Shown: positions 1-58,557 of the stretch, piece by piece | Numbering within the stretch: position 1 is the first letter of the stretch | Layout of the letters: each line of letters begins with the position of its first letter | Assembly: GCF_023055435.1 (NCBI RefSeq) | Contig: NW_025964367.1 | Location: 992,001 to 1,056,000, forward strand | Length of the DNA: 64,000 nt | Reading direction: 5' to 3' | Source of the DNA: Haliotis rufescens | Taxonomy: Eukaryota | Program-made: the position numbers and the translations under genes | The notes under the pieces: generated by a model | The model's input: the letters and a program-made list of their open reading frames with translations, nothing else | Databases searched by the model: none | Told to the model about the DNA's origin: nothing

Positions 1-266
1 TGGCTGCTTGTATCAGTTCGGACTCATGCCGAATTTTTGTGCCACTGAGATACCCTGCCGCAGTTTAACATGAATTCCCCACTCAGACACAGTGTACTGA
101 CTCCGAGCCGACCAGTCCTTGTTTTAGCACCTTAATGCCGAGCGCCAGACAGGGTAACAATAAGTACCATCTTTTAACGTCTTTTGGTATGACGCGGCGG
201 GGATCGAACCCCGGACCTTCCGCTCTCCGGGCGGACGCTCTACCACTAGACCACGGAGGCGGTCTC
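1..266 (-). mobile_element. tRNA-derived SINE, family B (partial at window edge)
   Basis: Reverse complement gaccgcctccgtggtctagtggtagagcgtccgcc...ggttcgatccc contains A/B boxes. Same family at 22445, 40623 and 47070. Confidence 0.8.
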
Positions 267-785
267 TAGCTACATGAAGTCTAAAGATATTGTATGTAGA
301 TATTTTACTATGTATTAGTTGCAAGTGAAAAACACATAAAACACACCTAGAGCCGGGCTGGAAACAACATGATTTTTCCACAGTTAACAGAAATCTCGGT
401 TAAAAAAAAATCTGTTTTACGATTATCATGACCATGTGTCTACGAATCACTATCAAGTAATGATGAAAAAGCTATTCGCTAAAAGATGAGTTTATTCACA
501 CCTACCGGTGGCACCCGTCACAGACACATGCAAAGGCAAGTCAAGCGTTCACCTAGAAAACGAATTAGAAACGTTGCACAAAACGTTATGCAAATGTGGT
601 GCAATAATGTTGTCCCAATAGTACTGACCTGTGACTCTGCCATGGACACAATGGCGCGCTGTTCGGTCAGTCATTGTGATATCATACAATTAACATAATG
701 GACCCACCCCAAAACAATAACGCTTTACGACGTTAAGATACATATATCGCTCATTTGGGTCGTCTCCAAACTCGATTCATTCAGT

Positions 786-956
786 GAGAGTGAGTGAGCG
801 AGTATGGTTTTACGCCGCTTTTAGCAATATTCCAGCAATATCACGGCGGGGGACACCAGAAATGGGCTTCACACATTGTACCCATGTCGGGAATCGAACT
901 CGGATCTTCCGCGTGACGAGCGAACACTTTAACCACTAGGCTACCCGACCGCCCCA
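786..956 (-). mobile_element. tRNA-derived SINE, family A, (ACTC)n tail
   Basis: ggggcggtcgggtagcctagtggttaaa...gttcgattccc head with an actcactc tail. Also present in copy 2 at ~47938-48104. Confidence 0.85.
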
Positions 957-1054
957 AGTCGAGAGTGAACATCGATTCCTTAGAAAACCAGACCCAACGT
1001 CGATTATCCCAGTGCTGACGTTCCCTACACCTCTGGCGCCACTGATTACAAAAG

Positions 1055-1335
1055 GGGGGCACGGGTGGCCCAGTCGTCTAAGGCGCAACGATTCGCTGTG
1101 CAGATTTGCGCCCATTGGGCACGCCAGAAACCTATGATTGTGGGTTCGGATCCCGGTTCGCCCCGATTATATTTTTAGGTTTTACAGCACCATACCCGTG
1201 CTCGTTGGTTTCACCGAAGAGGTAAACGTCTGAGACCTGCATCACTTCGGGCTTTCCTCCCACTTTAACCTGACACGCCGTCATATAACTGGAATATTGT
1301 TAAAAGCGGCGTTAAACCCAACTCACGACGACGAC
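1055..1335 (+). mobile_element. tRNA-derived SINE, family D, copy-1-specific insertion
   Basis: A box (gtggcccagtcgtctaaggcg), B box (ggttcggatcc) and (acg)n tail. TSD gattacaaaag at 1044-1054 and 1336-1346. Empty site in copy 2 near 48194. Confidence 0.85.
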
Positions 1336-1593
1336 GATTACAAAAGACATACAGCAAGTTGTGGGGTGACACGTTGACGTCGTGCACGCATCTGCTATCC
1401 GTGCATACGATTTCACACCGTTTGGACATGAACTCTTGCCTCTAGCAACCGGTCCAATATCTGAGTGACAGTTAGCAACTGACTTCTAAATGCCATCGTT
1501 CTGACTGATCTGTCCTGGGCTGGAGTTGATGCTCTTTGGTCGTCCCGAGCGACATAATATCTTTGATGGTTTCGGGACCTCAATCTGCTGATG

Positions 1594-1756
1594 GGGCGGT
1601 CGGGTAGGCTAGTGGTTAAAGCGTTCGCTCGTCACGCCGAAGACCCGGGTTCGATTCCCGACATGGGTATGTGAAGCCCATTTTTGGTGTCCCCCGCCGC
1701 GATATTGCTGGAATATTGCTAAAAGCGGCGTAAAACCATACTCACACACTCACTCA
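1594..1756 (+). mobile_element. SINE family A, copy-1-specific insertion
   Basis: 15-bp TSD ctcaatctgctgatg at 1579-1593 and 1757-1771. Empty site in copy 2 near 48440. Confidence 0.9.
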
Positions 1757-2292
1757 CTCAATCTGCTGATGACATTCAGAGTTTAGGCAAAATTATGCTG
1801 ACGTGTGCGCAGCTGCAAGATGCGTGGCACCGATCAATAATATTGGTTACTTAATGATTAAATGTGTTTAAAAAAGGGTCTTTGAACATTTTGTTCCAAG
1901 AAAACAATGTGCATCTTACAATGGTAAATCTGGCATATCACCCTTGCACATGCTGTCCGAGGTCACGTGATTCATAACTTTTACAATGTTCTGCTGGGAG
2001 CTTGAATCCTCCGGAAATGTTCTTGCCACATACATCACTTACTTTCATTGCCAGACTTTTGTGTACGTTCTTATAGTTTCACCTCAAAACGAAATATCCC
2101 CAAAAAATTTGGCATTGTATAACACAAAGGACACTGGCCAGCAAATCGAGACAAGAGACGTGCCGATATAAGACCTAGTGTCAATAAGACTTCTTCATAA
2201 TCTTAAACTATGAGTTTGAACACTGAGATTTGTTTCTGAGGCCATCAATAAAATACGACACACTCCTATGGGTATTAATAGGATGGCACATG

Positions 2293-3700
2293 TACTCTTC
2301 AAAAAAGAAACGCGCAAGTAGATTTTTAGTACATGTATTGTACCTAATAAAGTCGATATATTTAATTTAATATCATAGATACTAATATGAAATTTTGGAG
2401 CTCGACAGTCACATGTTGTCGTTGTACTAAGGCATTGAAAACTGTTCATTGTCATGTCACATGAGGCCACAAGGTTGCGCTGACCTCGTGTATCTCGTGT
2501 GACCGCCCCGGGCAGCAGTCACGGATCTGCATCTCCTTGGCACTGACTGGATAAGTGTACGAATTCTGTCCTGTGGAATTCTGCGCCATTCTGCTTCAAA
2601 CGCATTGGCCAGTTGTGGGAGTGTCTGCGGCGTATTCTGACGTTTACGTACACGTCGATAGAGTTCATCCAAGGGGGCCCGACGGCCAGGGCAAGACGTT
2701 GATGTTGCCATTATGAGGGAAGTCTACCGTGACACGAGCTGTGTGCACTGGAGCGTTGTCCTGTTGAAACAGATCCCTCTGGTGGTCAATGATTGGAAGA
2801 AGGTGAGGTTGAAGAATTTGATTCATGTAGCCATGTGCTGTCAAATTTCCCTGAACCCAAAAGATTTCCCGGGGTAGGATATAGACCCCCACCGCCAATG
2901 CCATCGCCGCCACCGAAATTGTCGAATTAACGAACACAATGTGGGGCAAAACGCTCATTTCGACGACGATAAACACATTGTCTCCCATCTCGCCGGTGAA
3001 GAATAAATCGTGATTCATCGCTCAACCACACTCGTCTCCAGTTTCTCAAATTCCAAGGCTGTAAGGTATGGCACCAACGCAAGCGTTGACGATGGATCTG
3101 TTGCACAACAGGGACGATAACTGGTCCTCTGGGTCGGATTCCAGCCTCGCGAAGATGGTGCCTGACAGTCTGGTCCGATATCCTCCTCAAACCAGGGATG
3201 CGTCCTGCAGCTCCGTAGCTGTGGCATTGCGATGACGTAGGTGGAACAGTCGAATGTGGCGATCCTGTGCAGGGCCGGTAACTCTTGGTCGGCCGGTTCT
3301 CGGACGGTCTGCAGTGGAATCGAACTGTGTGTATCGGTCACAAAGGCGGCAAATGGTGCTGTGGTGGACGTTGAAGTGACGTGCAACAGAAGACTGTGAT
3401 TCCCCTCTTTGGATAGGTCCTATGGCGATGTTCCGATCGGCAGCGCTGAGTCTCGGCATTTTCGAACTTGAAAAATGTTGACAGTTGAATGACAGATTAT
3501 TGGCTTATGCTTGCCTTCATGTAGCCACTACCACGAGCTACGAATGCCATAACGTGTACGTGCATTTTGCTTTACTGTTTTCGTCTTTGACATTTTTGAA
3601 CATTTTCCAATAACATATATCCAATTTATGTACCGGATTATTTTTTTCGTCAGGTTCAATGGACTACATACTACCTGTGCGTTTCCATTTATGAAGAGTG
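2293..3700 (-). mobile_element. Tc1/mariner DNA transposon with frameshifted transposase
   Basis: Imperfect TIRs (c/t)actcttcaaaaaagaaacgc ... gcgtttccatttatgaagagtg, followed by TA. Fragments carry MPRLS...HTH, RTGRPRVT, WLSDES, FQQDNAPVH and GGHTRY across several frames. Confidence 0.9.
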
Positions 3701-5454
3701 TATATAAATATGTGTATTCAATTTACATTGTTGCAAAAGAGAGTTATATATAGGAAAATGGAAATATTGGATTATAATATTCCGTTATTATCATGCAATC
3801 TCTAAGACGCTGGCATTTATGAGATAATTCCTGTATTGAATCGAGGAGGCATCATTAACACTTATCCTATAATGGACAACCCAGTCAGGGCACGAAGAGA
3901 GGGCATCAACGCTGACATGTGTTGCCAACTGGACATGTGTTGCCAACTACGCCGACATTTTTTATAAAAAAATAAGAAATGAATTTCACATTGTGGTGGT
4001 AAACTGGAGAATGAATGGTGTGAGTTGTGCAGATTAAAGTCGTGTAAACGCCGGATCTTACGACGAACATTTGAGATGATTTACGTTACCGGTTACATTG
4101 GTTACCCACTAGCGGATATATTCTTCACACTTCCGCAAAACAAAGTAGTTCCAATTCCATAAATATAAAAAAAACAACAGCTTATTTTTAATGAACTAGG
4201 GTTACATTCATTAAAATTTAACTTAAGAAATGACTTTCTTTTTTTCACGCGACCTTCACCTCAAAGAATTTACCAGATACGTATAACATATGTTGACGTA
4301 TGTTATCACAACCGGTGATCAACAAAATGGAGTGTCCACTGATATAAGTATGCGGGATTGAACTTAGGGACGTTCGTTGATTCGGGGATCGTACATACAT
4401 AAAAGTGTCATGTAAGTAGTCAGAAACATTCTGAAAATCTGTGTATTGTTATTCTTGTTTATGTTTTCACTGTAACCAAAAGAAAGAGTCCGAAATGCCA
4501 ATAAAAACTTTGTCGTTGTGCGTGACTTTGCGTCAGTCATGAGGTCACACAGTACGGAAGCTTTGATAATGTCTGTTGAATTTACCAAATCATTGTAATG
4601 TATCTATTTTCTAATTCCCTAATTCTTGCTACGATACTCTTCCCATGCATATTCTAAAAACATAGAGCAATTGTATCTCTTTAAATAGGAGAAAATGCTA
4701 CATAGCATAATATCTGAGTATTGCTTTGTTTACATTTCAAACAAGTGCAGTTTTCCGAGCACAGCTTTCGTTTTCACACCTAATTTATTTCGCTTGAGTT
4801 CGTCTAAACAGCTTGTATTGGTGACAAAGACCATTTACCATTTGATTCTAAAATGAATGACGAATTCAGGGATGTATGTATCACACTTGAGATGGAAAAA
4901 TACGTGATGTAATAAGCGTCTCATAACCGGCAAACGTGAACGTGATTTGGTAAACACTGTCAGTGAAAACGAAACGTTACTTTATTGTCCGACATTGACA
5001 ATCCTCACTATTTTGCTAAGCAGGGGAGGGAACAGAGAAAATGTTCCACTCTGGAATTCACCATGTAAAGTAGTCCCGGTCGAAAATTGTGTGAACGTCA
5101 AAAAGTGAGGTTTATATTTTGTAAACGTCACTATTTGAAGTTTGTTGAAAAAAACAATCAAATGATCGGAAATCCCTTAAATTACAACATATGAATTTAT
5201 AATTAAAATGTTTTGAACCGACTGTTGTACTGCTTTATCGTCCGTTGATATAGGGGCCATTGATATATTTGCACAGATAGTCTTCACAGTATACCTGTTC
5301 AGAGTACGAACATGCTATCAGTTCATCCCAAGAGTGGACACAGGTGGCGCAGGAAAAGGTTACACGTTTAACACATCTCATACCATGAGAAGACACAGAT
5401 GATGAACACAGATCATCCCGAGACGAGTAGACGACACATCAGTGGGAGGTTACA

Positions 5455-5808
5455 TGGTTAAAATAGATCGTCTCCAAAGAAGACCCAATAAAGATCAAAG
5501 GAGACTGTGTCAGTTCAACATAGATCATGTCCAAAGAAGACCCAATCAAGATCAAAGGAGACTGTGTCAGTTAAACACAGATCGTTTCCATAGTAGACCC
5601 AGGCCAGATCGAAGGAGACTGTGTCAGTTAAACACAGATCGTTTCCATAGTAGACCCAGGCCAGATCGAAGGAGACTGTGTCAGTTAAACAGAGATCGTT
5701 TCAATAGTAGACCCAGGCCAGATCGAAGGAGACTGTGTCAGTTAAACACATATCGTTTCCATAGTAGACCCAGGCCAGATCGAAGGAGACTGTGTCAGTT
5801 AAACATAT
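5455..5808. repeat. 57-bp minisatellite (~6 units), distal array, copy 1
   Basis: Unit acacagatcgtttccatagtagacccaggccagatcgaaggagactgtgtcagttaa. Confidence 0.95.
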
Positions 5809-6934
5809 GAGAACGCGTGCTGTGTGCTCTCACATACAATTGGGTAACCTTAGAACATAAAGTTAAGAATATAAATCACAGAGTTGATGGCGAAAGTTCC
5901 AGTATTTATTCTTGAGCAGATGTGATGTAGATACATTCAATACACAATTTCAAGTTATTACAATAATAAAGGTGTACATAAGATATTGTATAATATTACA
6001 GTTTAACATTTACTCAATGAATATTCTCGAGGGAATAAGCTTATAGAATTGATAATTGATTGTTTTGAGAATTAGCATGGTAGAGTTGACAATGGCGGGA
6101 AGATGACTGGCTACAGTTTACAATATTATTAATAATACTAACATTAACGATAAATGTGCGGTAACCCAACAATGTTGAGATATGTATAATAAATTTAAAA
6201 TACAACTATTCACAACAAAGTATGACATGCAATTAATGATAATTGTAAGCAGTATTATAAAAAATATGAACTGCATTTTATAATTCATTGCAACAACACT
6301 GAATAAAACGTTATAAAACACAAACATTCCAAATAATTACTTACATTGTACAACGACCACATAAATACATTACCTGTACTCAGTTCAAGTTAGATATAAA
6401 CAGAGTTATTTGGTCTAACTTCTTACATTTCTAAACAATAAGTACACATGTGAATAATTTGAACAAGGGAAACCAGCTTACCTTAGAACATAATGTTGAG
6501 AATATAAATCACAGAGTTGATGGCGACAGTTCTGGTATTTATTCTTGAGCAGATGTGATACCAAAGGGGCATCTGCTTGGTTTTATATAGTTGAGAGGCC
6601 GAGGAGCTGGAACTGCGCCTTTACTATTATTGGTCCAAAGTATGTAACGCCAATTTTGATTGGATAAGAATTTCTGACCTAAGGCTGGTAATAACTGGCT
6701 GATTTCCCAAGTTTTACTAACCTACTGTTTGACATTAACGATTGATAAAAACAATGCATCTGGTATAATGTTTGCCTTGAGGTAATCCTTTGCCTAAGGG
6801 GGATAATTAGAGGTGACGGGTAGGTAGACACTGACGATGATTGAGCTACACTCACTCGTTGACGGGTATAGAATCAAAATAGCAGGGGATTATGTTTGGA
6901 CAATGGGCATGTTGATTTTGTGCCTTATGGGTAT

Positions 6935-7615
6935 TGTAAGGATCACAATAAATGTCAATTCATCCTAGAACAAAAGAACAATTCTCATTTCCATTCCATC
7001 TTCATTCTCATTCTCAACTCATCACCAATAAATAACCTCTTTTGAATTGGAAGATTGACTGCAAAGGAAAAGTAAACAATCATACGTTTGCAGTTCAATA
7101 TGTAAACAAAACAATAACAATGTATGACAATTACTAAAACAACAAAAGTTGAGAAAAGACATTAAATTGTGACAAAATAATTGCAAGATCATTTGCCCAG
7201 AAAGAATGTATACATAAGTGATTGAAAACTGAACACATTATCATTACTTCAGAAAAGTTACAAATACAACAATTTGGGAAATAAAATTGCTACAGAAATA
7301 TATTGACAATGGAAAAGAAATACAAATGCATGACAACATACCATTTTGGTAGACCCATATTCTTCTTTAATCTTTACTTTTTGCCTTTTTGTCTCTGACC
7401 ACATGGGTCCTCATTCTCTTTTTCGAGAAACTAAAAAGCATGCATGGCATGCAGCCTAAACAGAGTGACCTTCCTTGGCTAAACTCCTGAAGCATGCATA
7501 AAATAATAATCTTTTACATGCTAATTTTGGAATGAAAACTTAGGAAAAAGTTAAACTTGAATAATTTGGAAAAGTAAATAGGAATTATTTTAGAGATGTT
7601 ATTTTGACCGTAACA
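6935..7615 (-). repeat. BEL 3' LTR
   Basis: tgtaaggatc...gaccgtaaca, adjacent to the PPT. Confidence 0.95.
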
Positions 7616-7884
7616 CCCCAGCCCCTTAATTGTACCAATATAAATGGGACAATTACGAATATAGACAAAAGAAAACTATTTATAAATAAAATGCGAAAAT
7701 AAAACAAATGCTTTTAAGATAACAGAGATATACCCAATGAAAATTACCTCTTTTCATCAAGCAAATTGTGTCACAAAATGTATCAATTCAAATTCTTTGT
7801 ATCATAACACGGTATTACAAATTCATTCATTCTTACTCAAATATTAACAGCATTTCAATAAAACACAATGGAATAGATGAAATA

Positions 7885-8051
7885 GTGAGTGAGTGAGTAT
7901 GGTTCCACGCCGCCCCCAGCAATATTCCAGCAATATCACGGCGGGGGACACCAGAAATTGGCCTCACACAATGCACCCATGTCAGAAATCGAACCCGGGT
8001 CCCCAGCATGACAAGGGAACGCCTGAACCACCAGGCCACCCGACCGCCACA
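7885..8051 (-). mobile_element. SINE family A nested in the BEL 3' UTR (A-to-G hypermutated)
   Basis: TSD aatagatgaaata at 7872-7884 and 8052-8064. About 13 T>C changes (plus strand) relative to the other family-A copies. Confidence 0.9.
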
Positions 8052-8129
8052 AATAGATGAAATAATAAAACTTCAAATCATTTCATCACTGAGTTCATAT
8101 GCACTTAATGCATCACTGAATTTCACTGT

Positions 8130-11100
8130 TTATTCATCCGTTTCAAGAACAAAGCACAGTTTTGTTACAGGTCTCTGTAACACGGATGTTTGCGTTTTTA
8201 CAGTCACAGTCCTGACAAGTCCTTTCTTGTCTGCAAACACTTTCAGGACTCTACCGAGAGCCCATGAATTTCTGGGTGTGTTCTCAACAAGGAGAACAAT
8301 GTCGCCTACTTTCACATTTCGCCGTTTCTTTGTCCATTTCTGTCTGATCTGTAATTGGGGTAAGTATTCTTTTACCCACCGTCTCCAAAACACATTGGCT
8401 AAATACTGAATTTGACGCCATCGTCTCCTTACGTAATTGTCCGAGACGTCAAAACTTCCTGGCGGCATATGTTCACCTGCACGAAGAGTGAGGAGGTGAT
8501 TAGGGGTTAGAACACACAGATCATTTGGATCACTACTCACAGATGTTAGTGGTCTGTTATTGATGATTACCTCCACCTCACAAAATAATGTCTGTAACCC
8601 CTCATCATCCAAATGAATCACTTGTTGATGCAGCAGGGAATTTAACACTTTTCGAACTGTCCGAATCATTCTTTCCCATACTCCACCATGGTGTGAAGCT
8701 GCAGGTGTGTTGAATTCCCATGAAATTCCTTTCTGTTGAAGTGATGTATGAATCTTACTCTGATTTAATTTGTTTATCTCATCGCAGAGTTCTCGCTCAC
8801 TTCCGACCAGGTTGGTTCCATTATCGGAGCGAATGGATTTCACTGTCCCTCTCCTAGCAATGAATCTTCTCACTGCATTAATGCATGAATCTGTATCTAG
8901 AGAGAACGCCATTTCTAAATGCACTGCTCTGACTGTAAGGCAGGTAAATATCACACCATACCTTTTCACTTCTTTTCTTGCTCTCTTCACCATTATTGGA
9001 CCAAAGAAGTCCATACCCACGTGTGAAAATGGTGGTTCATCTACAGAGAGACGATCTGACGGAAGACTCGACATTTGCTGCTCCATGACACAAGCTCTGT
9101 ACTTCCGGCACAGGACACACTTGGACACTAGGCTCTTGATAATAGAGCCAGCCCCCATTATCCAATAATTCTGTCTCAATTGGGCCAGCATTGATTGATA
9201 TCCAAGATGTCCAACTTTCTCATGGCTGTCTCTCAATATCAAAGATGTGATAGCAGACTTCTTTGGTATGATAACTGGATGTTTGGCATTGAATGGAATG
9301 TTAGCTTTATCTAGGCGTCCTCCGATTCTCATAATTCCATCAATTACAACAGGATTCAGTTTGACTAGAGGAGATCTGGGTCTCAAACAACACTTACTTG
9401 TTGTCAACATTTTTATTTCTTCATGGAAACACTGTTGTTGCACATGACGTATCAATGTCACTTCTGCTTTTTCAACCATTTCGATTGACAATTGCTTGAA
9501 TTTCATGACCTTTTTCTTCAGGTTTTGGATGAAAAGGAGAATCCATCCAACAGCTCTCTTAAGTCTGGTCCAATCTGAATAGTGACTGATTAACTTGTCA
9601 AGTGGAGAATAGTGAGCTGCATTAAGTGTAGTAGTAGCTACAGTCCTTTTCACCTCTGGATCATTTGCTGGAAGAATCAACTCTTTCTCATTGCTGTTGA
9701 CTTGCCATTCTGATTCTGGTTTCCTTAGGAAATCTGGACCCTTCAACCATATATCAGCCTGGAGAAACTTGTTTACTTTCATACCTCTAGACGCTGCATC
9801 GGCTGGATTAGATTTGGTATGGATGTAGTTCCACTGGTTCTTGTCTGAAGCTTCTCTGATTATCTGAACTCTGTTTGCAACGAATGTGTGGAATCTGTTG
9901 GTGTCATTGGCAATGTATCTGAGTACTGACCAGCTGTCTGTCCAGTAGAAAGTTTCTGTTACTATATATTCCAGTTCATCTCTGATCATTTTGCAGAGTT
10001 TCATTGCAATAGTTGCTGCTGTCAACTCCATCCTTGGTATAGTCACTCGTTTCAGAGGTGCTACTCTTGATTTCCCCATGACGAAGGAGACATGAATTTC
10101 ATTTCTTGAGTTGATTAGTCGTAGATAGGCGACTACTCCATAACCATGATCACTGGCGTCCGAGAACATATGAAGTTGACAGGTGACGACTGATCCAAAC
10201 TCTTCTGTCTTGAAACATCTGGGTAGTTTTATGTTTCTGAGGTGTGATAAACCATTTAACCACTCTCTCCATATCTTCATGTCATCTCCAGATATTTCCT
10301 TGTCCCATTCTACATTGTCTCTACACAGTTTCTGCAGCAGGATCTTGGCAACTAGGACATATGGTGACACATATCCTAACGGGTCATATACTGAGCTGAC
10401 CATGGAGAGTATTCCTCTTCTAGTAGGTGGTTTGTCTTTCACTTTAGTGTTGTATTGAAAACAGTCTTTCTCTACTGACCATGTCACACCAAGAGCTCTT
10501 TCAACAGGGAGTTGATCAGATTTCAGATCGATAGATTTCAGACTCTTTGCTCTCTCACTAGGTTGTATGCTCTCAACTACAGTGTGTCTGTTACTCATCC
10601 ATTTGGTAACACGGAAACCTCCCCTTGCACACAGTTCACGCACATCAGTTACAATAGATTTAGCTATGTCTTCATTCTCAACTGATTTCAGCAGGTCATC
10701 TACGTAGAAGGATCTGAGGATGACATCGGTTATGAGAGGATTGAACATTTCTCTGTTATCTTCTGCAGTTTGGCGTAGAGCAGCTGTCGAACAACTGGGC
10801 GATGATACTGCTCCGAACAAGTGCACACACATGCGATATACTGCAGGTTCTGATTGAAGATCTCCATCTGGCCACCAGTAGAACCTGAGGAAGTCTCTGT
10901 CATCTCGTGGGACTCGTACCTGATAGAACATAGATTCTATATCAGCCATTAGGGCCACAGGCTCTTGTCTGAATCGCAGTAATACACCGATGAGGCTGTT
11001 GGTTAAGTCAGGGCCTTGAAGCAGTAGATTGTTGAGTGATGTTCCTTGATGTGTAGCTGCACAATCAAACACCACTCGGATCTTGTCTGGTTTGTGAGGG

Positions 11101-14036
11101 TGATACACACCATGATGAGGAATGAACCATACCTTTCCATCGTCCTGTTTCAGTTCATCATCAGGCACCTTTTCAGCATAGTTCTTTTCCAGAATGATGT
11201 TCATGAAGTCTTTGTAGTCGCTGAGAAAGCCATTATTTCTCTTCATCTTCTGTTTCAGATTCATCAGCCTCTGATAGGCTTGGTAGTGATTGTCTGGGAG
11301 GCGGACTGAGTCTCTCTTGAATGGAAGGGGTATTGTGTAATGTCCATCATTTAGTGTTATGCTCTCCTTGACTTTCTCCATAAATCTGATATCATTGTGT
11401 GATGGCTGGCGTTTGTCGTCGATGACACGTTCTGGGAAGTCATAGTTGATTGACTGTTGGACAAGCTGACCAAGTTTCTTCAACTCTTCTATTTCCTGAA
11501 TAGCAGTTATATCAGCTCTGTTGACAGTGAAGCAGTTCTGTACATCTGTATGTCTCACAACATTCCACACTACCCATCCCAGTCTGGTAAACGTTGCATG
11601 TGGACTTCCTTGAGGTCCTGTCTTGACATGCAGAGGAGAATAGGCATCTGGAACATTGTTGCCTATTAGTATACCTATCTCAGAGTCAATCTGAGGAAGG
11701 GAAACACCTCTCAAGTGTGGCCATCCAGAGATATCGGTTTGGGTTGGAATATGCTGATGCGTCACTGGCATTCTATCTTTTGTGTAGAGCTTGGGCAACT
11801 GTACAAAGTTCTCTCCTGTCAGATCACTTACTTCCAGGTGGTTGATGCTGTAGGTTATCATAGAGTGTGGGTGTCCCATGGTCTCCAGAGTTATCTTTAA
11901 TCTTTTACCCTCACATCCTAACTTCTGTTTCATGCTGTCAGTGATGAAGGAAACACTGCTTCCAGGATCCAGAAAGGCATAGGTTCTGATAGCGTGACTA
12001 CTTCCTTTCCTTCTCAGCATCACAGGAATTATTGCCATGGTACATTCTTCTTCTCCAGCTCCCATACAACTCACTGTGTTGGAACTACTTTCCCTGCTTG
12101 TTTTCTGTCCATCATGTCTACTGTCTATTTGAGCCTTAGGCTTGCTGCGGTTGAAATGTAGGACTGTTTGATGACTGAGGCCACAGTTGTTGCAGGATAT
12201 GGTTGCGTTGCAGTCCAAACTTTTGTGTCCATAGTGTAGACATCGGAAACATAGTCCCTTTGTCCTTAGATATTGTAGCTTGTCAACATGTTCCATTCCT
12301 TGCCACTGTTTACACTGTTCAAGTCCATGACCTTCATCCTTGCAGTAGATACATGGAGAAAGTAGAGCCTTGACTTTGCTTGGTGTCTCCATGGGTCTAG
12401 TTTCTCTACTCCTTTGTTGATCATCCTGAGACAGATTTGTAGACATGACCTTTGGCTTGGACTTGAACCATTTATCTGGTGTCTTTGACAGTTCACTGAG
12501 GGCTTTTCTACCGTAGACTGGATCATTTGCCTTTTTTGCCTCTCTTCTGACGAACTCTACAAGTGAGCTAAATGGAATGGTTCTACCTTGAGCCTTGATG
12601 TTCTGTACAATGTTTCTCCATCTATCGTGATAGTGATATGGCAGCTTTATTACGAGTTTTCTCATGTTGTCTGGGTAATCAAGAATCTTCATGGAGTGTA
12701 TGCTCTTGATTGCATTCTCACATTCTGTGAGGAAAAGTGCAAACTCGTCCAGTGCCTTTGGATTGTCCACTTTAATCAATGGCCAGTTGAATGCTCGCTT
12801 GATAAATGCTGAAGCAATGGTGTCTGGATTACCATAGCGTTCTTCAAACTCATTCATGATTGCCTCATATGCGTGATATCCATCCAGATAGCTGTAACCC
12901 ACCACAATCCGATTGGCCTCATCCTTCGTGTATTGGTCCAAATAGTTAACTATTTCTTCAGGATCCTCAGTGTTGGTAAGGACATAACTTCTGAACTGTC
13001 TTGTGAATCTTTTGTAGTCGATCGGATCCCCGCTGAATGGCTTCATTTCCACTTGAGGTCTTTTGAGATGTTTGACAACAGATGAGTATTCTAGTAGAGG
13101 ACTTGCATATCCATAGCCTGGAGCTGTCATGACATCAGGATATGTTTGTGGGTAGTAGGGGTCAGGTTGATACTGTGGTGTTGTATCCGTTCTGTATACA
13201 TGTTGAGGAGGAACAGTTCTTGGATAGAATTCAGGAGGAGCATATTGTCCTGGCATTTCATTCTTCACGTGAGTCATATTCAGATCTTCAGCTTCCTGTT
13301 TGGGTGGAAAGTGATTTTCCTCTTGAGGAGCGAATCTGACATAACTTTCTACTGGCTGGGATTTGACATGTGTTTGTTGTGGATCTTCACCTTGTGCAGA
13401 TAGGACTTCTAATTTTTCACCGATTTCCCTCTCATATTCTTCAACTACTCTAGTCTTGGCATCTAGTGCTGCTATTTCTGTTTTCAACTTCAATTCTTTC
13501 TCTTCCATGTGAATTCTAAGCTTCTCCATTTCTAATCTTCCTACGTCCCTTAACGCGGAAGCCCTTGCCAACAATTCTGCCCTCTCTTGTTTATGTTTTA
13601 ACTTGAACATTGAGGTTGAACTTCGGGCAGAAGAAGACTTAACACTGCGAGATTTAACTTCACTTACCGCACTGTTATCATGAAACCATTTCTCAAGGTT
13701 TTGTTTAAATTGTCTTATTACAGGTGTTTCTTCTATGTCAACTTTTTGGTCATATAATGTCTTTTCATTAACATCTAACAGATTTGTGTATTCTTCTTTC
13801 ACACTGTAGTACTTATCTAGCAATGTCATGTACTGTTTATGCTCAAACTGCATCCTCCCAACATCATGCGTGTCCGACATCAAAGACTGAACACTGTCCT
13901 GCTTTGCTTTTAACTGTCTGAATGTTAATTTCAATAATCTCTGTTTCTGTTCTTTAGTGTAAAGCAACCCTCTATCTGTCATTTTCCTGTTTCTACTTGA
14001 AATACTACTGAATAGCGATGCATTATCTTCTTCCAT
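8130..14036 (-). CDS. BEL/Pao gag-pol polyprotein (Gag with Zn knuckles, protease, RT, RNase H, integrase), ~1968 aa, uninterrupted
   Basis: First ATG at 14036 (in-frame TAA just upstream of the TTG at 14054). Knuckles CIYC..H..C, CFRC..H..C and CNNC..H..H; protease FLDPGSS; RT YVDD; RNase H FSDAS/IPRMEL/WTDS/NPAD; integrase HHCC, DFFG, SDNG and WERM. Confidence 0.97.
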   Translation of the reverse strand: MEEDNASLFSSISSRNRKMTDRGLLYTKEQKQRLLKLTFRQLKAKQDSVQSLMSDTHDVGRMQFEHKQYMTLLDKYYSVKEEYTNLLDVNEKTLYDQKVDIEETPVIRQFKQNLEKWFHDNSAVSEVKSRSVKSSSARSSTSMFKLKHKQERAELLARASALRDVGRLEMEKLRIHMEEKELKLKTEIAALDAKTRVVEEYEREIGEKLEVLSAQGEDPQQTHVKSQPVESYVRFAPQEENHFPPKQEAEDLNMTHVKNEMPGQYAPPEFYPRTVPPQHVYRTDTTPQYQPDPYYPQTYPDVMTAPGYGYASPLLEYSSVVKHLKRPQVEMKPFSGDPIDYKRFTRQFRSYVLTNTEDPEEIVNYLDQYTKDEANRIVVGYSYLDGYHAYEAIMNEFEERYGNPDTIASAFIKRAFNWPLIKVDNPKALDEFALFLTECENAIKSIHSMKILDYPDNMRKLVIKLPYHYHDRWRNIVQNIKAQGRTIPFSSLVEFVRREAKKANDPVYGRKALSELSKTPDKWFKSKPKVMSTNLSQDDQQRSRETRPMETPSKVKALLSPCIYCKDEGHGLEQCKQWQGMEHVDKLQYLRTKGLCFRCLHYGHKSLDCNATISCNNCGLSHQTVLHFNRSKPKAQIDSRHDGQKTSRESSSNTVSCMGAGEEECTMAIIPVMLRRKGSSHAIRTYAFLDPGSSVSFITDSMKQKLGCEGKRLKITLETMGHPHSMITYSINHLEVSDLTGENFVQLPKLYTKDRMPVTHQHIPTQTDISGWPHLRGVSLPQIDSEIGILIGNNVPDAYSPLHVKTGPQGSPHATFTRLGWVVWNVVRHTDVQNCFTVNRADITAIQEIEELKKLGQLVQQSINYDFPERVIDDKRQPSHNDIRFMEKVKESITLNDGHYTIPLPFKRDSVRLPDNHYQAYQRLMNLKQKMKRNNGFLSDYKDFMNIILEKNYAEKVPDDELKQDDGKVWFIPHHGVYHPHKPDKIRVVFDCAATHQGTSLNNLLLQGPDLTNSLIGVLLRFRQEPVALMADIESMFYQVRVPRDDRDFLRFYWWPDGDLQSEPAVYRMCVHLFGAVSSPSCSTAALRQTAEDNREMFNPLITDVILRSFYVDDLLKSVENEDIAKSIVTDVRELCARGGFRVTKWMSNRHTVVESIQPSERAKSLKSIDLKSDQLPVERALGVTWSVEKDCFQYNTKVKDKPPTRRGILSMVSSVYDPLGYVSPYVLVAKILLQKLCRDNVEWDKEISGDDMKIWREWLNGLSHLRNIKLPRCFKTEEFGSVVTCQLHMFSDASDHGYGVVAYLRLINSRNEIHVSFVMGKSRVAPLKRVTIPRMELTAATIAMKLCKMIRDELEYIVTETFYWTDSWSVLRYIANDTNRFHTFVANRVQIIREASDKNQWNYIHTKSNPADAASRGMKVNKFLQADIWLKGPDFLRKPESEWQVNSNEKELILPANDPEVKRTVATTTLNAAHYSPLDKLISHYSDWTRLKRAVGWILLFIQNLKKKVMKFKQLSIEMVEKAEVTLIRHVQQQCFHEEIKMLTTSKCCLRPRSPLVKLNPVVIDGIMRIGGRLDKANIPFNAKHPVIIPKKSAITSLILRDSHEKVGHLGYQSMLAQLRQNYWIMGAGSIIKSLVSKCVLCRKYRACVMEQQMSSLPSDRLSVDEPPFSHVGMDFFGPIMVKRARKEVKRYGVIFTCLTVRAVHLEMAFSLDTDSCINAVRRFIARRGTVKSIRSDNGTNLVGSERELCDEINKLNQSKIHTSLQQKGISWEFNTPAASHHGGVWERMIRTVRKVLNSLLHQQVIHLDDEGLQTLFCEVEVIINNRPLTSVSSDPNDLCVLTPNHLLTLRAGEHMPPGSFDVSDNYVRRRWRQIQYLANVFWRRWVKEYLPQLQIRQKWTKKRRNVKVGDIVLLVENTPRNSWALGRVLKVFADKKGLVRTVTVKTQTSVLQRPVTKLCFVLETDE

Positions 14037-14116
14037 AGTTTCTGATTTATTCAATTAACTTCTCATTTAGATTTCTCTTTTCTGATTCTCATGGATAGGG
14101 TCAAAATGTCAATGAA

Positions 14117-14797
14117 TGTAAGGATCACAATAAATGTCAATTCATCCTAGAACAAAAGAACAATTCTCATTTCCATTCCATCTTCATTCTCATTCTCAAC
14201 TCATCACCAATAAATAACCTCTTTTGAATTGGAAGATTGACTGCAAAGGAAAAGTAAACAATCATACGTTTGCAGTTCAATATGTAAACAAAACAATAAC
14301 AATGTATGACAATTACTAAAACAACAAAAGTTGAGAAAAGACATTAAATTGTGACAAAATAATTGCAAGATCATTTGCACAGAAAGAATGTATACATAAG
14401 TGATTGAAAACTGAACACATTATCATTACTTCAGAAAAGTTACAAATACAACAATTTGGGAAATAAAATTGCTACAGAAATATATTGACAATGGAAAAGA
14501 AATACAAATGCATGACAACATACCATTTTGGTAGACCCATATTCTTCTTTAATCTTTACTTTTTGCCTTTTTGTCTCTGACCACATGGGTCCTCATTCTC
14601 TTTTTCGAGAAACTAAAAAGCATGCATGGCATGCAGCCTAAACAGAGTGACCTTCCTTGGCTAAACTCCTGAAGCATGCATAAAATAATAATCTTTTACA
14701 TGCTAATTTTGGAATGAAAACTTAGGAAAAAGTTAAACTTGAATAATTTGGAAAAGTAAATAGGAATTATTTTAGAGATGTTATTTTGACCGTAACA
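14117..14797 (-). repeat. BEL 5' LTR
   Basis: Direct repeat of 6935-7615. Confidence 0.95.
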
Positions 14798-15097
14798 GGT
14801 ATGAATATCGACGGCTTATTGTTTATGTAAGTAGGATGTAAAATGAAAAAGCTTGGCTAACCTTTATCAAATTAATATTAAGCTTATATAAAACATATGG
14901 ACAGTAAATTAATTAGAATGAAATAAAAGTAGAATATTAGAGGAAGCTAATTTTAAATGTACAAGAATTTGGATATACAGGTATATAAGATTAAGTTGGG
15001 AATATTTTATTATAATATTAGCTGTAGTTTTGATTAATTGGATTTAAAATAATGTAAGGAACTTTCAGCGAATTGGGACAAATATGTACACGATGAC

Positions 15098-15322
15098 ACA
15101 CAGACCGTCTCCAAAGTACAGCCGGCCTACATCAGAGGAGACTGTGTCAGTTCAACACAGACCGTCGTCAAAGTAGACCCGGCCTTCATCAGAGGAGACT
15201 GTGTCAGTTCAACATAGATTGTCTCAAAGGTAGACCCAGCCTAGATCAGAGGATACTGTGTTAGTTCAACATAGATCGTTTCCATAGTAGACCCAGCCTA
15301 GATCAGAGGAGACTGTGTCAGT
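15098..15322. repeat. 57-bp minisatellite, proximal array overlapping the lectin stop codon (~4 units)
   Basis: The first unit on the minus strand (15322-15266) is the coding sequence TDTVSSDLGWVYYGNDLC*. Confidence 0.9.
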
Positions 15323-17376
15323 GGGTTGAGGTCGGGGGAGCAGTTCACACTCTCGAGTTCCTCTGTTGTAGTTGACACCGACACAGGCTCCAGACAACAT
15401 ACACTGAAGGACACAGGACAATGGGGACATGTCAGGTGAAGATACAATGACAGGGGAGACAAGTCGTGCTGCTGATGCATTGAAATAGCCGAATCGCTTC
15501 CTGGCTGAAATATGTCCACATAATAGAATTATGGCATCTTAATAATATGTTTACTGTCCGGAGTGTACTATTTAACCTCTTTTGTGTTTCAGAAAACTAT
15601 AGAGTCGGACTTTTGGAAACCCGTTACTGTGCAATATGACTATTTTTCGTGAAACATGGATAATTAATCCAAAACAGGAATCCATGCATATAGATGTATT
15701 ATGTCGTTGTTAAGGCAGGACTCATTGAACTCACTTACTGTTGTTCACTCCGACACACCTCATTTGCAACGAATTACCAAAATCACTCATTAATCAGGCT
15801 CGTTAATCCGACATAGTGATCAGAGGACTCCGTTGTCATCTGCCCGCGAGTACACAGCCCGTGTATTGATGCAAGATGAGTGGGCTGATAGCAGCATATT
15901 ACAACGGATGCAGAGATAAAGAATTTTATGTCTTTATGTTTGACAATTACAATATGATTTCGGAACCTCAATGGCTTTTTAAGATGTGACTTATTTATAT
16001 AGGCCGTCCTACCTGGCTGTACTCCATACACTTCAAGTTCACAGAAGTTGAGAACATCCGCTTTGCCTCTGATTTTCGGTTTCCACAGTCTGATGAACCT
16101 TCCAAACACCGGAGCATCACATGCTATGTTCCCCATGGAACCAAACGTGCCAGTGTAGTTCTTACAGATGGAGAAAGCTGCTGATGGACATCGCGATGGA
16201 TTTCGTACATACACCTGGATTACAAAGTCATGGAGTCTTTCCCCTGAAAGAATAACATTAAAATAATAAACACAGTACTATAATTGTATTTGGCATAAAA
16301 CATTTAGCTTCAAGCATAATTATACAAAAACAGTGCTTAAGATGAATGCGTATATATGTTTCTGTGATGTGGCATGTCTTACAGTAACTTCGTATATTCA
16401 AGCATCTTCAGAAACCATCTGTATGGTCGACTGATACTTATTTGACGATGATAATAATTTGAATGAAAGATGAATTCTGGGTGAAGGTTGACGCAGAGTA
16501 GAAGTAGTTTGAGATACCGTTACGTACCACAGCAGTCTCCCCTGTTGTAGATGGTGACGTTGTGGACACTGTACTGCCCCAGGAGATCCACAACAAACCA
16601 GGGCGACATGTCACCAAAGTTAGTGTGACTGCAGACACCGTCGCGTATATCGGTTCCATGGCTGCCGTCGACAGCATTAGCAGCGATTTCGCGTAAACTA
16701 TTCACGCTGCTCATCCATGCTGGTTTCTTCAGAGCCAGGTTCAAACTTTGGAATTTGCAGACTGAAAATTGAGATTCTAAGTCATATGTGTGTATCGACA
16801 ATGAATTTATCTGAAAGAACCAAATGTTTTATGTTTTGTAAAATGTGTATTTCCAGCTGTCCGGGGCACACATCTGCACATTCGCCTTCATGATATTGAC
16901 ATCATGCAGTATCACCCTCTTTACATTGCTTTGTGACTTAGGATGTTCATGAGATTACTTTACAAGGGAAAATGAGTGACATTACGTGAGGAATAACCAT
17001 TTCCCTGCATTTCAATGCATCGTATCTTTTTCATAATATTTAGAAATAACGTCCATGAACAGAGAGGGTATGTTTTGAAGCAGGACATGTGCTCGCCTGA
17101 GACTGGTTCTGCTCCAGTATGAGTACCATCTATGCAGCCTATTATCTTCTCTACTGCCCTGACATGGCTATAGTCTTACTGATTCGAAGAGAAAGCGTTA
17201 GATATCTAAAAAGCTTCTGTCTCTTATTATATGGCTACAAACCTTCAATTGCTGTACAAAATATATCCGAAGTATAGCCTATAAACCTATTACTTACGAA
17301 TTTAACAAAAAAATGAGACCTCACCATCCAAATATATGACGAGCAGGAAAGAGATCCGGGAGTAGAGGTCTGCCAT
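15266..17376 (-). CDS. F-type lectin (fucolectin) plus C-terminal PAN/Apple-like domain, ~251 aa, copy 1
   Basis: Exons 17376-17325, 16761-16528, 16243-16013 and 15504-15266, all GT-AG with phase-1 introns, total 756 nt in frame. Motifs NLALKKPA, NAVDG, CSHT..PWFVVDL, H-x27-RGDCCGER and LNFCELEVYG. The last exon has C-x3-C-x5-C-VGVNY-x6-C-ELL...WVYY. The N-terminus is a short hydrophobic putative signal peptide. Confidence 0.88.
16985..17165 (-). mobile_element. PIF/Harbinger transposase relic in lectin intron 1
   Basis: Minus strand ~17118-17146 encodes IIGCIDGTH, the Harbinger first catalytic Asp motif. Copy 2 reads GCTDGTH near 55190-55215. Confidence 0.55.
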
Positions 17377-18438
17377 ACTGTCGCTGATCAATTCTATTAC
17401 CAACACGGCTGATGTGTTTAAGAAACTGAAGACTTGAAAATGACAATGTTCAATATTGATTGAAATCTCCTGACAGTACGTTGGCTCAACAGAACGTCTT
17501 TTTGTACCTGTTGGTGGGTTGCTGCAGAAACACAAGTCACAGTGACTTTAGTAGCCTGCAGTGTCGTATCGCTGCACCCTGGATGTTCCGGAAGGTTATA
17601 ACTTAATCATGCTGGTGTTTGTTGTCTGGGGACTGATGCTTCCACAATGATGGATTGTTGTGTTCCATAACTTCGATCGTTAAATGTCTTTTTCAGATGT
17701 AATCGATTTCAGTTGAGAAATGTATCCCAAGGGTATACCTACACTTGTACCCTGGCCGTCTTGTACTTGTCCTTCAAAACCCCTCATGAAACAGTTATTG
17801 ATCTGTTATATACTGACCAACAAAGCAAGGGGTCATGAAGGGGATATGTTTTGGAGTGAAGAACACACATGCAATTTCATAAAGATATCTAAAAAAATAT
17901 TCACGATCCCTAACATGTTTGGTCAGTATATATCCGTGTCCGGCTAAAGACGTTTCATTTCAAAATGAAACACCACAGACAGTACAGATACCGATGTATT
18001 GAGAAGTGCTCAATCGTTGATGTACCGTTTTCATGTTTATTGCAGAACTGCTGTTCTGCGTCGGGCAATAAAGACTGCGAGTGCTACCGAGAGTGCAGGT
18101 CATATTTACCCTGAACACCTGGTGTCATAACTGATTTCATTCACATCATTTTCACCGCTATTTTGCCTTTTACGCCCAAAGGGCCCTTTTTTCGGGTGAT
18201 CATTGAGACTTGTTATTCTCTGGCGTTGACGTTGTAAGGTTCTACATGCATTACTATGACAATCAGTAATTGTATTTTCACTCGACATAATGCTGAAAGT
18301 ACTTATCATATTGCTAGATGATTAATGCTAGGCATTATTCGTGTTAGCAATACAAATAATAATATACCCTTAACTAAATTGTTATCACTCGATTCATGCA
18401 GATGTGATGGCGTAGAAGGAGGCCTATAGCCAAAATGA

Positions 18439-18699
18439 TTTGTTTGCTTTTTAACGCCGCAATCAGCAATATTACAACTATATGACGGCGGTCTGTAAAT
18501 AGCCGAGTTTGGACCAGACAATCCAGTGATTGATGTCATGAGCATCGATCTATGCAATTGGAATACGATGGAATGCATCAACCACGTCAACGAGCCTGAC
18601 CACCTGATCCCGTTAGTCGCCTCTTACGACAAGCATAGTCACCTTTTACAACAAGCATGGGTTCCTTAAGACCTATTCTACCCTGGATCTTTACGGGTG
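18439..18699 (-). mobile_element. SINE family C (core gtcgtaagaggcgactaa, Nin/Deu-domain-like)
   Basis: Same family at 26696, 33876, 42148 and 56500; (aaac)n-type tail. Confidence 0.8.
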
Positions 18700-19299
18700 T
18701 AGCCCTAATGACATAAATGCAGACTTAAATGTGTACTTGTGAAATGTAATTCTCCATATCCTACATAGGCGAAGTATAACATGTGTGTTCTCGTGATCTA
18801 TATACGTGAGTAAATGCATTAAACAATACCGTGTTGGGCTTCACATTGTTTATGTCACCAGTGTCTACAACATATTTGTTGGCTACAAAGATTGTGATTA
18901 AATCACCCGACACGAATATTTTTGATAAAGTAACAATTACGTGTGGAAGTTGACTTTAATCACTATTTATTTGGGGGATTACCTCCCTTGAGCAGACGGA
19001 TGTGTTTCAAATTCAACGAGGATAACATATAACGTCAATTTGTGGTACAGATGTACATCAAGAAGAACTTATCCAGTGTTATGGGAATATCTTAAGAAGC
19101 ATGGAAAGGTCGGATCGATAGGTTTGTGCAACCTAGAGGCCACGGGCATGTAGACATATCTTTTCCCTACACCCCTGCGTAAAACTGGGCGGAGGGGACA
19201 GCTATGGTGTTTAGGATTTTGTTGTGTACAACTGCTTTCATCACAATGTAGACTATAGGATCGGTCACTGCATCACTTAACGAACGATGTCTACATTGG

Positions 19300-26695: not shown

Positions 26696-26951
26696 GGTTT
26701 GTTTGTTGTTTAACGCCGCACTCATCAATATTCCAGCGTTATGACGGCGATCTGTGTATAATCGAGTCTGGATCAGACAATCCAGTGATTGACATCATGA
26801 TCATCTACGCAACTGGGATACGATGACATGCATCAACCAAGTCAGCGCGCCTGACCACCCGATCCCGTTAGTCGCTCCTACGACAAGCATAGTCGCCTGT
26901 TACAGCAAGAATGTGTGTTGGAGACCTTTTCTACCCCGGATCTTCACGGGT
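26696..26951 (-). mobile_element. SINE family C
   Basis: Same body as 18439-18699. Confidence 0.8.
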
Positions 26952-47069: not shown

Positions 47070-47415
47070 GAGGTGAGGTGAGGTGAAATTAGGTTTAACG
47101 TCGCGTCCAAGATTATTGCACTTATATAGCGACGTGCATGCACGTGTTTGTGTCTGTCTGTGTGGCTGCTTGTACCAGTTCGGACTTTTGTGCTATAGCC
47201 CACTGAGATACCCTGCCGCAGTTTAACATGAATTCCCCACTCAGACACAGTATACTGACTCCGAGCCGACCAGTCCTTGTTTTAGCACCTTAATGCAGAG
47301 CGCCAGACAGGGTAACAATAGGTACCATCTTTTAAGGTCTTTTGGTATGACGCGGGCGGTGATCGAACTCAGGACCTTCCGCTCTCCGGGCGGACGCTCT
47401 ACGGAGGCAGTCTCT
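47070..47415 (-). mobile_element. SINE family B
   Basis: (gaggt)n tail; counterpart of 1-266. Confidence 0.85.
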
Positions 47416-58519: not shown

Positions 58520-58557
58520 TAATAAACATTATACATAGTGCACTGTTACTACTCGGT

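What the first reader, a model, noticed from the sequence alone, without database searches (positions are those of the whole stretch)
7885..8051. SINE inside the BEL 3' UTR bears an ADAR-like A-to-G hyper-editing fossil
Seen: relative to family-A copies at 786, 1594 and 47938, this copy has ~13 T>C changes on the plus strand (ggtttt>ggttcc, gctttt>gccccc, ggcttc>ggcctc, tgtacc>tgcacc, gtcttc>gtcccc, gctt>gcct, cacta>cacca, ggcta>ggcca) among ~23 differences, and no plus-strand C>T. Most of the remainder are G>A at CpG. Both the SINE and the BEL are transcribed from the minus strand, so these are A>G changes in the RNA, clustered in A-runs. Established: this is the signature of ADAR A-to-I editing copied into DNA by reverse transcription. 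Inference: the SINE was edited as RNA and then fixed. Because the BEL LTRs are nearly identical while the SINE is ~14% diverged, the SINE is probably cargo carried by this BEL lineage.
Basis: partly seen in the sequence, partly recalled or inferred. Interest (0 to 1): 0.75.

Follow-up and report, generated by a model that had tools for sequence, protein, structure and literature searches.

The report
RNA-edited SINE riding a retrotransposon
A short mobile element lodged inside a larger, recently active retrotransposon has over a third of its adenines changed to guanine on one strand, with a partly different set in a sister copy, most likely because the RNA-editing enzyme ADAR altered the retrotransposon's RNA more than once and reverse transcription wrote those normally transient edits into inherited DNA.

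Summary
Confirmed and extended. The tRNA-derived SINE at 7885-8051 lies, with a 13-bp target-site duplication, in the 3' UTR of an intact young BEL/Pao element. Against the SINE family consensus it has 13 A>G of 33 A on the RNA strand and 0 T>C; 118 other copies have at most 5. Contigs of other samples carry the same letters. Edited sites follow the metazoan ADAR neighbour rule (5' U/A 12 of 21 vs C/G 1 of 12; 3' G 6 of 6; 3' U 0 of 9), though 5' G depletion alone is not significant. A sister BEL carries the same insertion with 11 A>G: 9 shared, 4 window-only, 2 sister-only; 6 private A>G against 0 private T>C exceeds background. So editing likely struck BEL RNA at least twice, confined to the SINE. 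Serial versus parallel rounds is unresolved, the partner strand is unknown, and no RNA showed editing. The scan noted ADAR fossils in other genomes before; none listed was SINE cargo in an LTR element. New variant of a known kind.

The parts
7885..8051 (-). tRNA-derived SINE (family A), full length, sense in the BEL RNA; 13 A>G on the RNA strand at plus positions 7905, 7906, 7914-7917, 7963, 7974, 8002, 8003, 8023, 8032, 8037
   Evidence: tRNA-like head in the sibling copy 879-950, Rfam RF00005 E 0.032, 26.7 bits, under the gathering score of 29
7872..7884 (.). 13-bp target-site duplication of the SINE, LTR-side copy
   Evidence: sequence
8052..8064 (.). 13-bp target-site duplication of the SINE, ORF-side copy
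   Evidence: sequence; also in the C1 copy
7628..8129 (-). BEL 3' UTR that holds the SINE; flanks show no T/C cluster between the two BEL copies
7616..7627 (-). polypurine tract next to the 3' LTR
   Evidence: sequence
6935..7615 (-). BEL 3' LTR (TG...CA, 681 bp); 2 A>G among 14 derived changes in 612 sites, no excess
8130..14054 (-). single uninterrupted gag-pol frame, 1974 aa stop to stop: DUF1759, RT, Pao peptidase A17, integrase zinc finger, DUF5641; no A>G excess
14117..14797 (-). BEL 5' LTR, 1 difference from the 3' LTR
6930..6934 (.). 5-bp target-site duplication of the BEL (repeated at 14798-14802); the empty site survives in the paralogous block near 52828
789..957 (-). ordinary family-A SINE used as seed (duplicated at 47939-48107)
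1592..1755 (+). ordinary family-A SINE, antisense to the BEL RNA and 5.2 kb downstream of the 3' LTR; example of a possible partner strand, not shown to be one

Best explanation
A SINE inserted into the 3' UTR of a BEL/Pao retrotransposon and has been carried by it since; its adenines were likely deaminated by host ADAR while it was part of BEL RNA, in at least two separate events, and the BEL reverse transcriptase likely copied the inosines as G into germline DNA. Shown: the insertion with its target-site duplication in two BEL copies, the one-strand A>G excess, its confinement to the SINE, the neighbour preference, the shared and private sites.
For: 13 A>G / 0 T>C (window) and 11 / 0 (C1 copy) vs at most 5 A>G in the other 118 of 120 copies held; P 1e-10 and 7e-9. 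Neighbours in the window copy: 5' U/A 12 of 21 vs C/G 1 of 12 (P 0.007), 3' G 6 of 6 (P 0.002), 3' U 0 of 9 (P 0.004), the pattern that PMC9989829 section 12 reports across metazoans. Same insertion in the C1 BEL: 9 shared, 4 window-only, 2 C1-only. Private A>G 6 at 22 remaining A, private T>C 0 at 40 T, private non-CpG G>A 1 at 41 G; expected 0.25-1.0 from ORF, four-fold or UTR divergence, P 2e-7 to 4e-4 (3e-3 at worst if the one site explicable by CpG decay is dropped). All 3 of the 3 UAG sites left after the shared edits are edited in the window copy vs 1 of 19 others (P 0.003, a post-hoc test). SINE diverges 10% between the two BELs, UTR flanks 4.5% and 1.3%, ORF 1.8-2.5%. ORF and LTR show no A>G excess. 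Free copies show no hyper-editing: double A>G motif 9 vs double T>C motif 6 genome-wide, none with a one-sided cluster; 6 further double-A>G hits had 2-4 A>G; a triple motif had 0 hits. The edited copy still forms about 150 pairs with antisense ordinary copies (median -272 vs -290 kcal/mol, 25 partners). The genome holds several adenosine-deaminase (PF02137) loci; ADAR1 editing with T/A/C upstream is reported in abalone and oyster (PMC6651903 passages). Independent samples, two species labels, carry the letters.
Against: Only two BEL copies keep the 3' UTR; the C90 and C479 copies are truncated before it, so no SINE-free or unedited BEL was seen and the shared edits cannot be dated relative to the insertion. 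No inverted SINE lies inside the BEL and the SINE alone folds no better than shuffles (z -0.46 and -0.28), so the partner strand is unobserved; PMC9989829 notes intermolecular pairing is negligible in humans though not in several invertebrates. 5' G depletion alone is not significant, and in the C1 copy the 5' U/A preference is not significant (P 0.12). PMC5625713 reports downstream A rather than G preference for invertebrate hyper-editing, and PMC6651903 no strong downstream preference in molluscs. The two C1-only edits were not seen in an independent sample; run X10 gave a mix of C1-type and window-type markers that may be assembly mosaic or recombination. Shared edits in the UTR flanks cannot be tested for lack of an outgroup. 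PF02137 also matches ADAT and ADAD; which loci are active ADARs was not tested.
Confidence: 0.75

Rival explanations
1. One editing event only, on the free SINE RNA (or a host mRNA holding it) before it inserted into the BEL; differences between the two BEL copies are later reversions and ordinary mutation.
For: 9 of the edits are shared, and the overlap is far above uniform chance (P 6e-4). One C1-only G sits in a new CpG and could have decayed back in the window copy. One free copy in a solo LTR on C68 has 4 A>G among 6 differences, so light editing of free SINE RNA may occur.
Against: Needs 4 non-CpG G>A reversions among 14 edited sites in two copies vs 1 among 30 native non-CpG G (P 0.03); the window-only sites are all 5'-U, 3 of them UAG; private sites abut shared ones at one-base distance, which conversion tracts would not give; no hyper-edited free copy among 118.
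Confidence: 0.12
2. Variant of the best explanation: two independently edited RNAs from one unedited BEL master gave the two copies, and the nine shared edits are hot spots hit in parallel rather than inherited.
For: Among the 12 best-context sites (5' U/A, 3' purine) the overlap of 8 is what chance gives (P 0.45).
Against: Among all 3'-purine sites the overlap is still high (P 0.04); three private edits lie immediately 5' of shared ones, as stepwise editing would give; no BEL with an unedited SINE was found.
Confidence: 0.25
3. The copy belongs to a minor SINE subfamily whose diagnostic sites are these residues.
For: None found. One unrelated copy (L220) has three of the G residues in one A-run and none of the others.
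Against: The C-run motif has 14 genome matches: 2 are the BEL copies, 12 belong to another SINE family that shares that block. The best 40 scored of 2708 candidates reach only 88% outside the BELs. Diagnostic sites would not be 13:0 one-sided with ADAR contexts.
Confidence: 0.03
4. DNA-level or polymerase process: reverse-transcriptase error bias, GC-biased conversion, or selection to disable the SINE's Pol III promoter and escape SINE-directed small RNAs.
For: Two window edits hit the A box and one C>T hits the B box; selection could have favoured edited lineages.
Against: RT bias would affect ORF synonymous sites and LTRs, which show no A>G excess; GC-biased conversion is strand-symmetric, yet T>C is 0; 11 of 13 edits lie outside the promoter boxes.
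Confidence: 0.08
5. Sequencing or assembly error in homopolymer runs.
For: Several changes lie in T-runs.
Against: Contigs of run X14 (other species label) cover all 13 sites, X12 12 of 13, X5 (other study) 9 of 13, none with a different letter at these sites as far as tables 3 and 8 tell; a second locus shares nine.
Confidence: 0.01

Closest known systems
ADAR-type A-to-G hyperediting of avian retroviruses (Rous-associated virus, avian leukosis virus), as reviewed in PMC12925331 (passage read; the original 1990s papers not seen)
   Same: Clustered A>G in a non-coding part of an LTR-type genome, fixed by its own reverse transcriptase; up to about half of the A in a duplex region.
   Different: There: exogenous virus in culture, U3 or an inverted repeat of the virus itself. 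Here: endogenous invertebrate BEL/Pao element, germline-fixed and shared across samples, edits confined to captured host SINE with no inverted partner inside the element, and two copies with different edit sets.
L1-made processed-pseudogene insertions with clustered T>C in inverted 3' UTR Alus, 3 of 235 insertions (PMC11702581, passage read)
   Same: SINE in a 3' UTR edited by ADAR and written into DNA by a retrotransposon reverse transcriptase; edits restricted to the SINE.
   Different: Those are one-off insertions in an induced cell system via LINE-1 with an inverted Alu pair in the same mRNA. Here the carrier is the autonomous LTR element itself, which stayed active, so edits are inherited and can accumulate.
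APOBEC DNA editing fixed in vertebrate LTR retrotransposons (PMC4866542, passages read)
   Same: Host deaminase signature fossilised in genomic LTR elements, strand-biased and clustered.
   Different: G>A on cDNA, across the element, reported absent from 19 invertebrates. Here A>G with ADAR context, local to a SINE.
ADAR control of LTR retrotransposons in C. elegans (PMC7084138, passages read)
   Same: ADARs act on LTR retrotransposon RNA in an invertebrate; the authors note such RNAs lack inverted repeats.
   Different: Expression and siRNA effects; the passages seen report no edits fixed in DNA. A captured SINE is one concrete way an LTR RNA gains a duplex.

Membership tests
ADAR A-to-I hyper-editing fixed by reverse transcription | A>G dominates on the RNA strand, with no matching T>C | tested here: met
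   13:0 and 11:0; P 1e-10 and 7e-9 against 61 background copies
ADAR A-to-I hyper-editing fixed by reverse transcription | 5' neighbour U or A favoured | tested here: met
   window 12 of 21 vs 1 of 12, P 0.007; union of both copies 13 of 21 vs 2 of 12, P 0.014; C1 alone P 0.12
ADAR A-to-I hyper-editing fixed by reverse transcription | 5' G depleted | tested here: inconclusive
   1 of 7 vs 12 of 26, P 0.14; only 7 such sites
ADAR A-to-I hyper-editing fixed by reverse transcription | 3' G favoured, 3' U disfavoured | tested here: met
   6 of 6 and 0 of 9; rule from PMC9989829 section 12; PMC5625713 gives 3' A for invertebrates, here 6 of 12
ADAR A-to-I hyper-editing fixed by reverse transcription | Edits confined to a long double-stranded region | tested here: inconclusive
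   Confined to the SINE, which can pair over about 150 nt with antisense copies, but no partner lies in the element and none was observed
ADAR A-to-I hyper-editing fixed by reverse transcription | Region passes through an RNA that is reverse-transcribed | tested here: met
   Between ORF stop and polypurine tract of an LTR element with two copies bearing it
ADAR A-to-I hyper-editing fixed by reverse transcription | Inosine or A/G mismatch between RNA and DNA of the same animal; dependence on ADAR | not testable with these tools
   No matched stranded RNA and DNA; no knock-down
BEL/Pao LTR retrotransposon | Single gag-pol frame with Pao peptidase A17, DUF1759, RT, integrase, DUF5641 | tested here: met
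BEL/Pao LTR retrotransposon | TG...CA LTRs, polypurine tract, short target-site duplication | tested here: met
BEL/Pao LTR retrotransposon | Clade within the superfamily (Sinbad, Sparrow, Surcouf, Tas, Suzu, Dan, Flow; PMC6238403) | not tested
   No reference sequences in hand (passages only)
tRNA-derived SINE | tRNA-like head with A and B boxes, simple-repeat tail, target-site duplication, high copy number | tested here: met
   Boxes, weak Rfam tRNA hit, 13-bp duplication, 25 full-length copies in 400 kb, about 83,000 by extrapolation
tRNA-derived SINE | Identity with a named mollusc SINE family | not tested
   PMC4758252 passages gave no sequence to compare; resemblance to an abalone SINE is recalled, from no call

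The most novel reading that the evidence does not exclude
A captured host SINE turns an active LTR retrotransposon into a recorder of ADAR activity: each round of RNA editing is fixed by the element's own reverse transcriptase, G-U pairing keeps the cargo editable, each new G primes the adenine upstream, and so the cargo evolves by a directional, heritable RNA-editing ratchet that also erodes its promoter and its likeness to the host's most abundant repeat while the carrier stays active.
Probability: 0.45. Interest if true: 0.8.

Novelty: new variant of a known kind. Interest (0 to 1): 0.62.

Why it matters
RNA editing is normally not inherited. Here an intact, recently mobile retrotransposon carries a dated, germline-fixed record of ADAR-type editing, with an internal control (the rest of the element) and tens of thousands of unedited sibling SINEs as reference. 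It implies ADAR acts on retrotransposon RNA in the germline of this invertebrate, suggests how LTR RNAs without inverted repeats become ADAR substrates (by capturing an abundant SINE), and offers a testable case of repeated RNA-to-DNA transfer of edits along one lineage. It also warns that such copies look older than they are (14% vs 6% divergence).

Tried and rejected
No RNA holder listed. Search for a SINE-free or unedited BEL 3' UTR: only the window and C1 copies keep it; C90 stops at window 8557, C479 at 10024; other LTR matches are solo or unrelated inside. Intramolecular partner: no inverted match over 10 nt inside the BEL; in a fold of 6935-8200 only 11 of 167 SINE bases pair outside the SINE; SINE self-folding not better than shuffles. 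Idea that an antisense SINE in the LTR supplied the partner: three such insertions exist in this LTR family (C68, C479, C268) but show no T>C editing and are not in the two UTR-bearing copies; not supported. Other repeat families B (121 copies), C (57), D (30) in the loci held: no hyper-edited copy; largest skews 7:0 and 6:0 T>C among 33 differences, not followed. Pattern was swamped by family B (28 of 30 inspected; 261 not inspected). Ten literature searches listed no paper on germline-fixed ADAR edits in SINE cargo of an LTR retrotransposon; the library lacks most subscription papers, I saw listings only for most hits, and no supplements were read, so this is weak evidence of novelty. No earlier scan note on editing in this genome.

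Full report
Setting. The window is G000:C589:992001-1056000 of a 1.33-Gb animal genome. That it is an abalone is my recollection from the look of the SINE; no call tested it. The finding lies in a BEL/Pao LTR retrotransposon: LTRs 6935-7615 and 14117-14797 differing at 1 of 681 sites, one 1974-aa frame on the minus strand with Pao peptidase A17, DUF1759, RT, integrase zinc finger and DUF5641, a polypurine tract at 7616-7627 and a 5-bp target-site duplication whose empty site survives in a paralogous block near 52828. The SINE spans 7885-8051, minus-strand sense like the BEL, between 13-bp direct repeats at 7872-7884 and 8052-8064.

The observation. Against six other window copies there are 13 plus-strand T>C. 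I built the SINE family consensus from the 25 copies of at least 140 nt found in 40 arbitrarily placed 10-kb stretches. On the RNA strand the window copy has 13 A>G at 33 A, 0 T>C at 37 T, 4 CpG changes and 5 others in 153 scored positions. Of 87 distinct copies then held I dropped the 2 BEL-borne ones and 24 picked for likeness to the query; in the remaining 61, A>G is 48 of 548 non-CpG changes, giving P 1e-10. In the final tally of 120 distinct copies, which includes copies fished with double-A>G motifs, the two BEL-borne copies have 13 and 11 A>G and the other 118 at most 5. Without the edits the copy is 6% from consensus, not 14%.

Not an error, not a subfamily. Contigs of run X14 (second species label) span 7805-7946 and 7941-8286 with 1 and 2 other letters, matching the listed differences at 7876, 8015 and 8199, so all 13 sites agree; X12 covers 12 of 13 and X5 (another study) 9 of 13 with no difference there. 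The C-run motif has 14 matches in the genome: the 2 BEL copies and 12 in another SINE family sharing that block. A triple-edit motif in the second A-run has 0 matches. Matched double motifs give 9 A>G vs 6 T>C copies, none with a one-sided cluster; 6 more double-A>G copies have 2-4 A>G. A looser motif gave 291 matches, 28 of the 30 inspected being the other family. Free SINE copies thus show no general fossil editing, as far as these probes reach.

ADAR signature. Edited A have 5' U or A in 12 of 21 cases vs 1 of 12 for C or G (P 0.007), 3' G in 6 of 6 (P 0.002) and 3' U in 0 of 9 (P 0.004); 5' G depletion alone is 1 of 7 vs 12 of 26 (P 0.14); ordinary copies show no such 5' pattern. PMC9989829 section 12, read whole, gives exactly this rule for metazoans: 5' U and A favoured, G disfavoured; 3' G favoured, U disfavoured in most species. 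Against: PMC5625713 passages give 3' A for invertebrate hyper-editing and PMC6651903 passages no strong 3' preference in oyster and abalone. The genome has several PF02137 deaminase loci, not classified.

Cargo, edited more than once. A second BEL on C1 carries the same SINE at the same site with the same duplication. It has 11 A>G and 0 T>C: 9 shared, 4 window-only (8032, 7974, 7917, 7906), 2 C1-only (8024, 8000). The two BELs differ by 1.8-2.5% in the ORF, 2.3% at four-fold sites, 4.5% and 1.3% in the UTR flanks, but 10% in the SINE. Polarised ORF changes and LTR changes show no A>G excess. Private changes in the SINE are 6 A>G at 22 A, 0 T>C at 40 T, 1 non-CpG G>A at 41 G; 0.25 to 1.0 are expected, P 2e-7 to 4e-4, or 3e-3 in the most cautious form. 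All 3 UAG sites remaining after the shared edits are edited in the window copy against 1 of 19 others (post hoc, P 0.003), and three private edits lie directly 5' of a shared one. A single event followed by reversion needs 4 non-CpG reversions (P 0.03). Because both copies descend from one insertion, private edits must have arisen inside the BEL. Whether the nine shared edits were inherited or hit twice is open: among the 12 best-context sites the overlap is unremarkable (P 0.45). Caveats: two copies only; the C1 copy is rearranged; run X10 shows C1-type markers (7906, a 6-bp gap at 8188, 8248) mixed with window-type stretches, which supports the existence of C1-like sequence but may be assembly mosaic or recombination, and the two C1-only edits were not seen there.

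Mechanism. Shown steps: insertion, carriage, one-strand A>G, confinement, context. Inferred steps: the BEL RNA has no inverted partner of its own and the SINE folds no better than shuffles, so the duplex likely forms with an oppositely oriented family member. There are about 83,000 full-length copies by extrapolation (25 in 400 kb), one antisense 5.2 kb downstream of the present 3' LTR, so a read-through or nascent transcript at successive insertion sites, or an antisense RNA in trans, would do; PMC9989829 passages report trans pairing as important in some invertebrates and negligible in humans. ADAR would edit only the paired 150 nt; RT reads inosine as G (established). The fixed copy is predicted still to form about 150 pairs with antisense copies, so it stays a substrate until favoured sites run out: all 6 A with 3' G are used. 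The second-species contigs show no further A>G, consistent with saturation or simply short time. Two edits hit the Pol III A box; any benefit to the carrier is speculation.

What is known. ADAR-type A>G in avian retroviral U3 and inverted repeats (PMC12925331 passage); edited inverted Alus in 3 of 235 L1-made insertions (PMC11702581 passage); APOBEC G>A fossils in vertebrate LTR elements, absent from 19 invertebrates (PMC4866542 passages); ADAR-dependent silencing of LTR elements in C. elegans (PMC7084138 passages). Ten searches found no report of this configuration, within a limited library and without supplements. Earlier unchecked notes of this scan describe ADAR fossils in SINEs, LINEs and Penelope-like elements of other genomes; they gave me two of the papers above and the avian-retrovirus lead, and are not counted as support.

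Verdict. A real, heritable ADAR-type editing fossil, moderate in extent (39% of A) but unusually well controlled, in SINE cargo of an active LTR retrotransposon, with evidence for at least two editing events on the carrier RNA. New variant of a known kind; interest 0.62.

Noticed in passing
L091 5941-10000 and L092 1-1373 (G000:C1:47259941-47265373): The sister BEL is rearranged: first 275 nt of an LTR, then an inverted block (15 nt of leader, a deleted LTR, 3' UTR, ORF to window 12213), then the rest of the LTR; junctions share a 7-nt microhomology. The UTR-LTR-leader junction resembles a circular or tandem form inserted into its own LTR.
   Followed up: partly
L107 8230-8395 (C68), L110 7626-7792 (C479), L099 8843-9010 (C268): Three separate family-A SINE insertions into LTRs of this BEL family, all antisense to the BEL RNA; none shows T>C editing. 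The C68 copy has 4 A>G on its own sense strand among 6 differences, three at sites also edited in the BEL-borne copies.
   Followed up: partly
window 1-6934 and 14778-21498 vs 47163-64000: Tandem segmental duplication of about 93-98% identity; the second block holds the empty site of the BEL.
   Followed up: partly
window 18439-18698, 26698-26951, 42158-42358, 56498-56760: A second SINE family shares the 3' block of family A (about 38 nt before the tail) but has a different body and tail, suggesting a shared LINE partner.
   Followed up: no
G000:C268:2575433-2668104: At least ten LTR-like copies (81-84% to the window LTR) spaced about 8-25 kb apart in one orientation, apparently amplified in a tandem array.
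   Followed up: no
L086 2659-2908 and L137 5359-5516: Copies of repeat families B and D with 7:0 and 6:0 T>C over A>G among 33 differences each; possibly chance.
   Followed up: no
window 5457-5808, 15098-15322, 50430-51703, 53123-53518: A 57-bp minisatellite present in both halves of the duplication with very different copy numbers.
   Followed up: no
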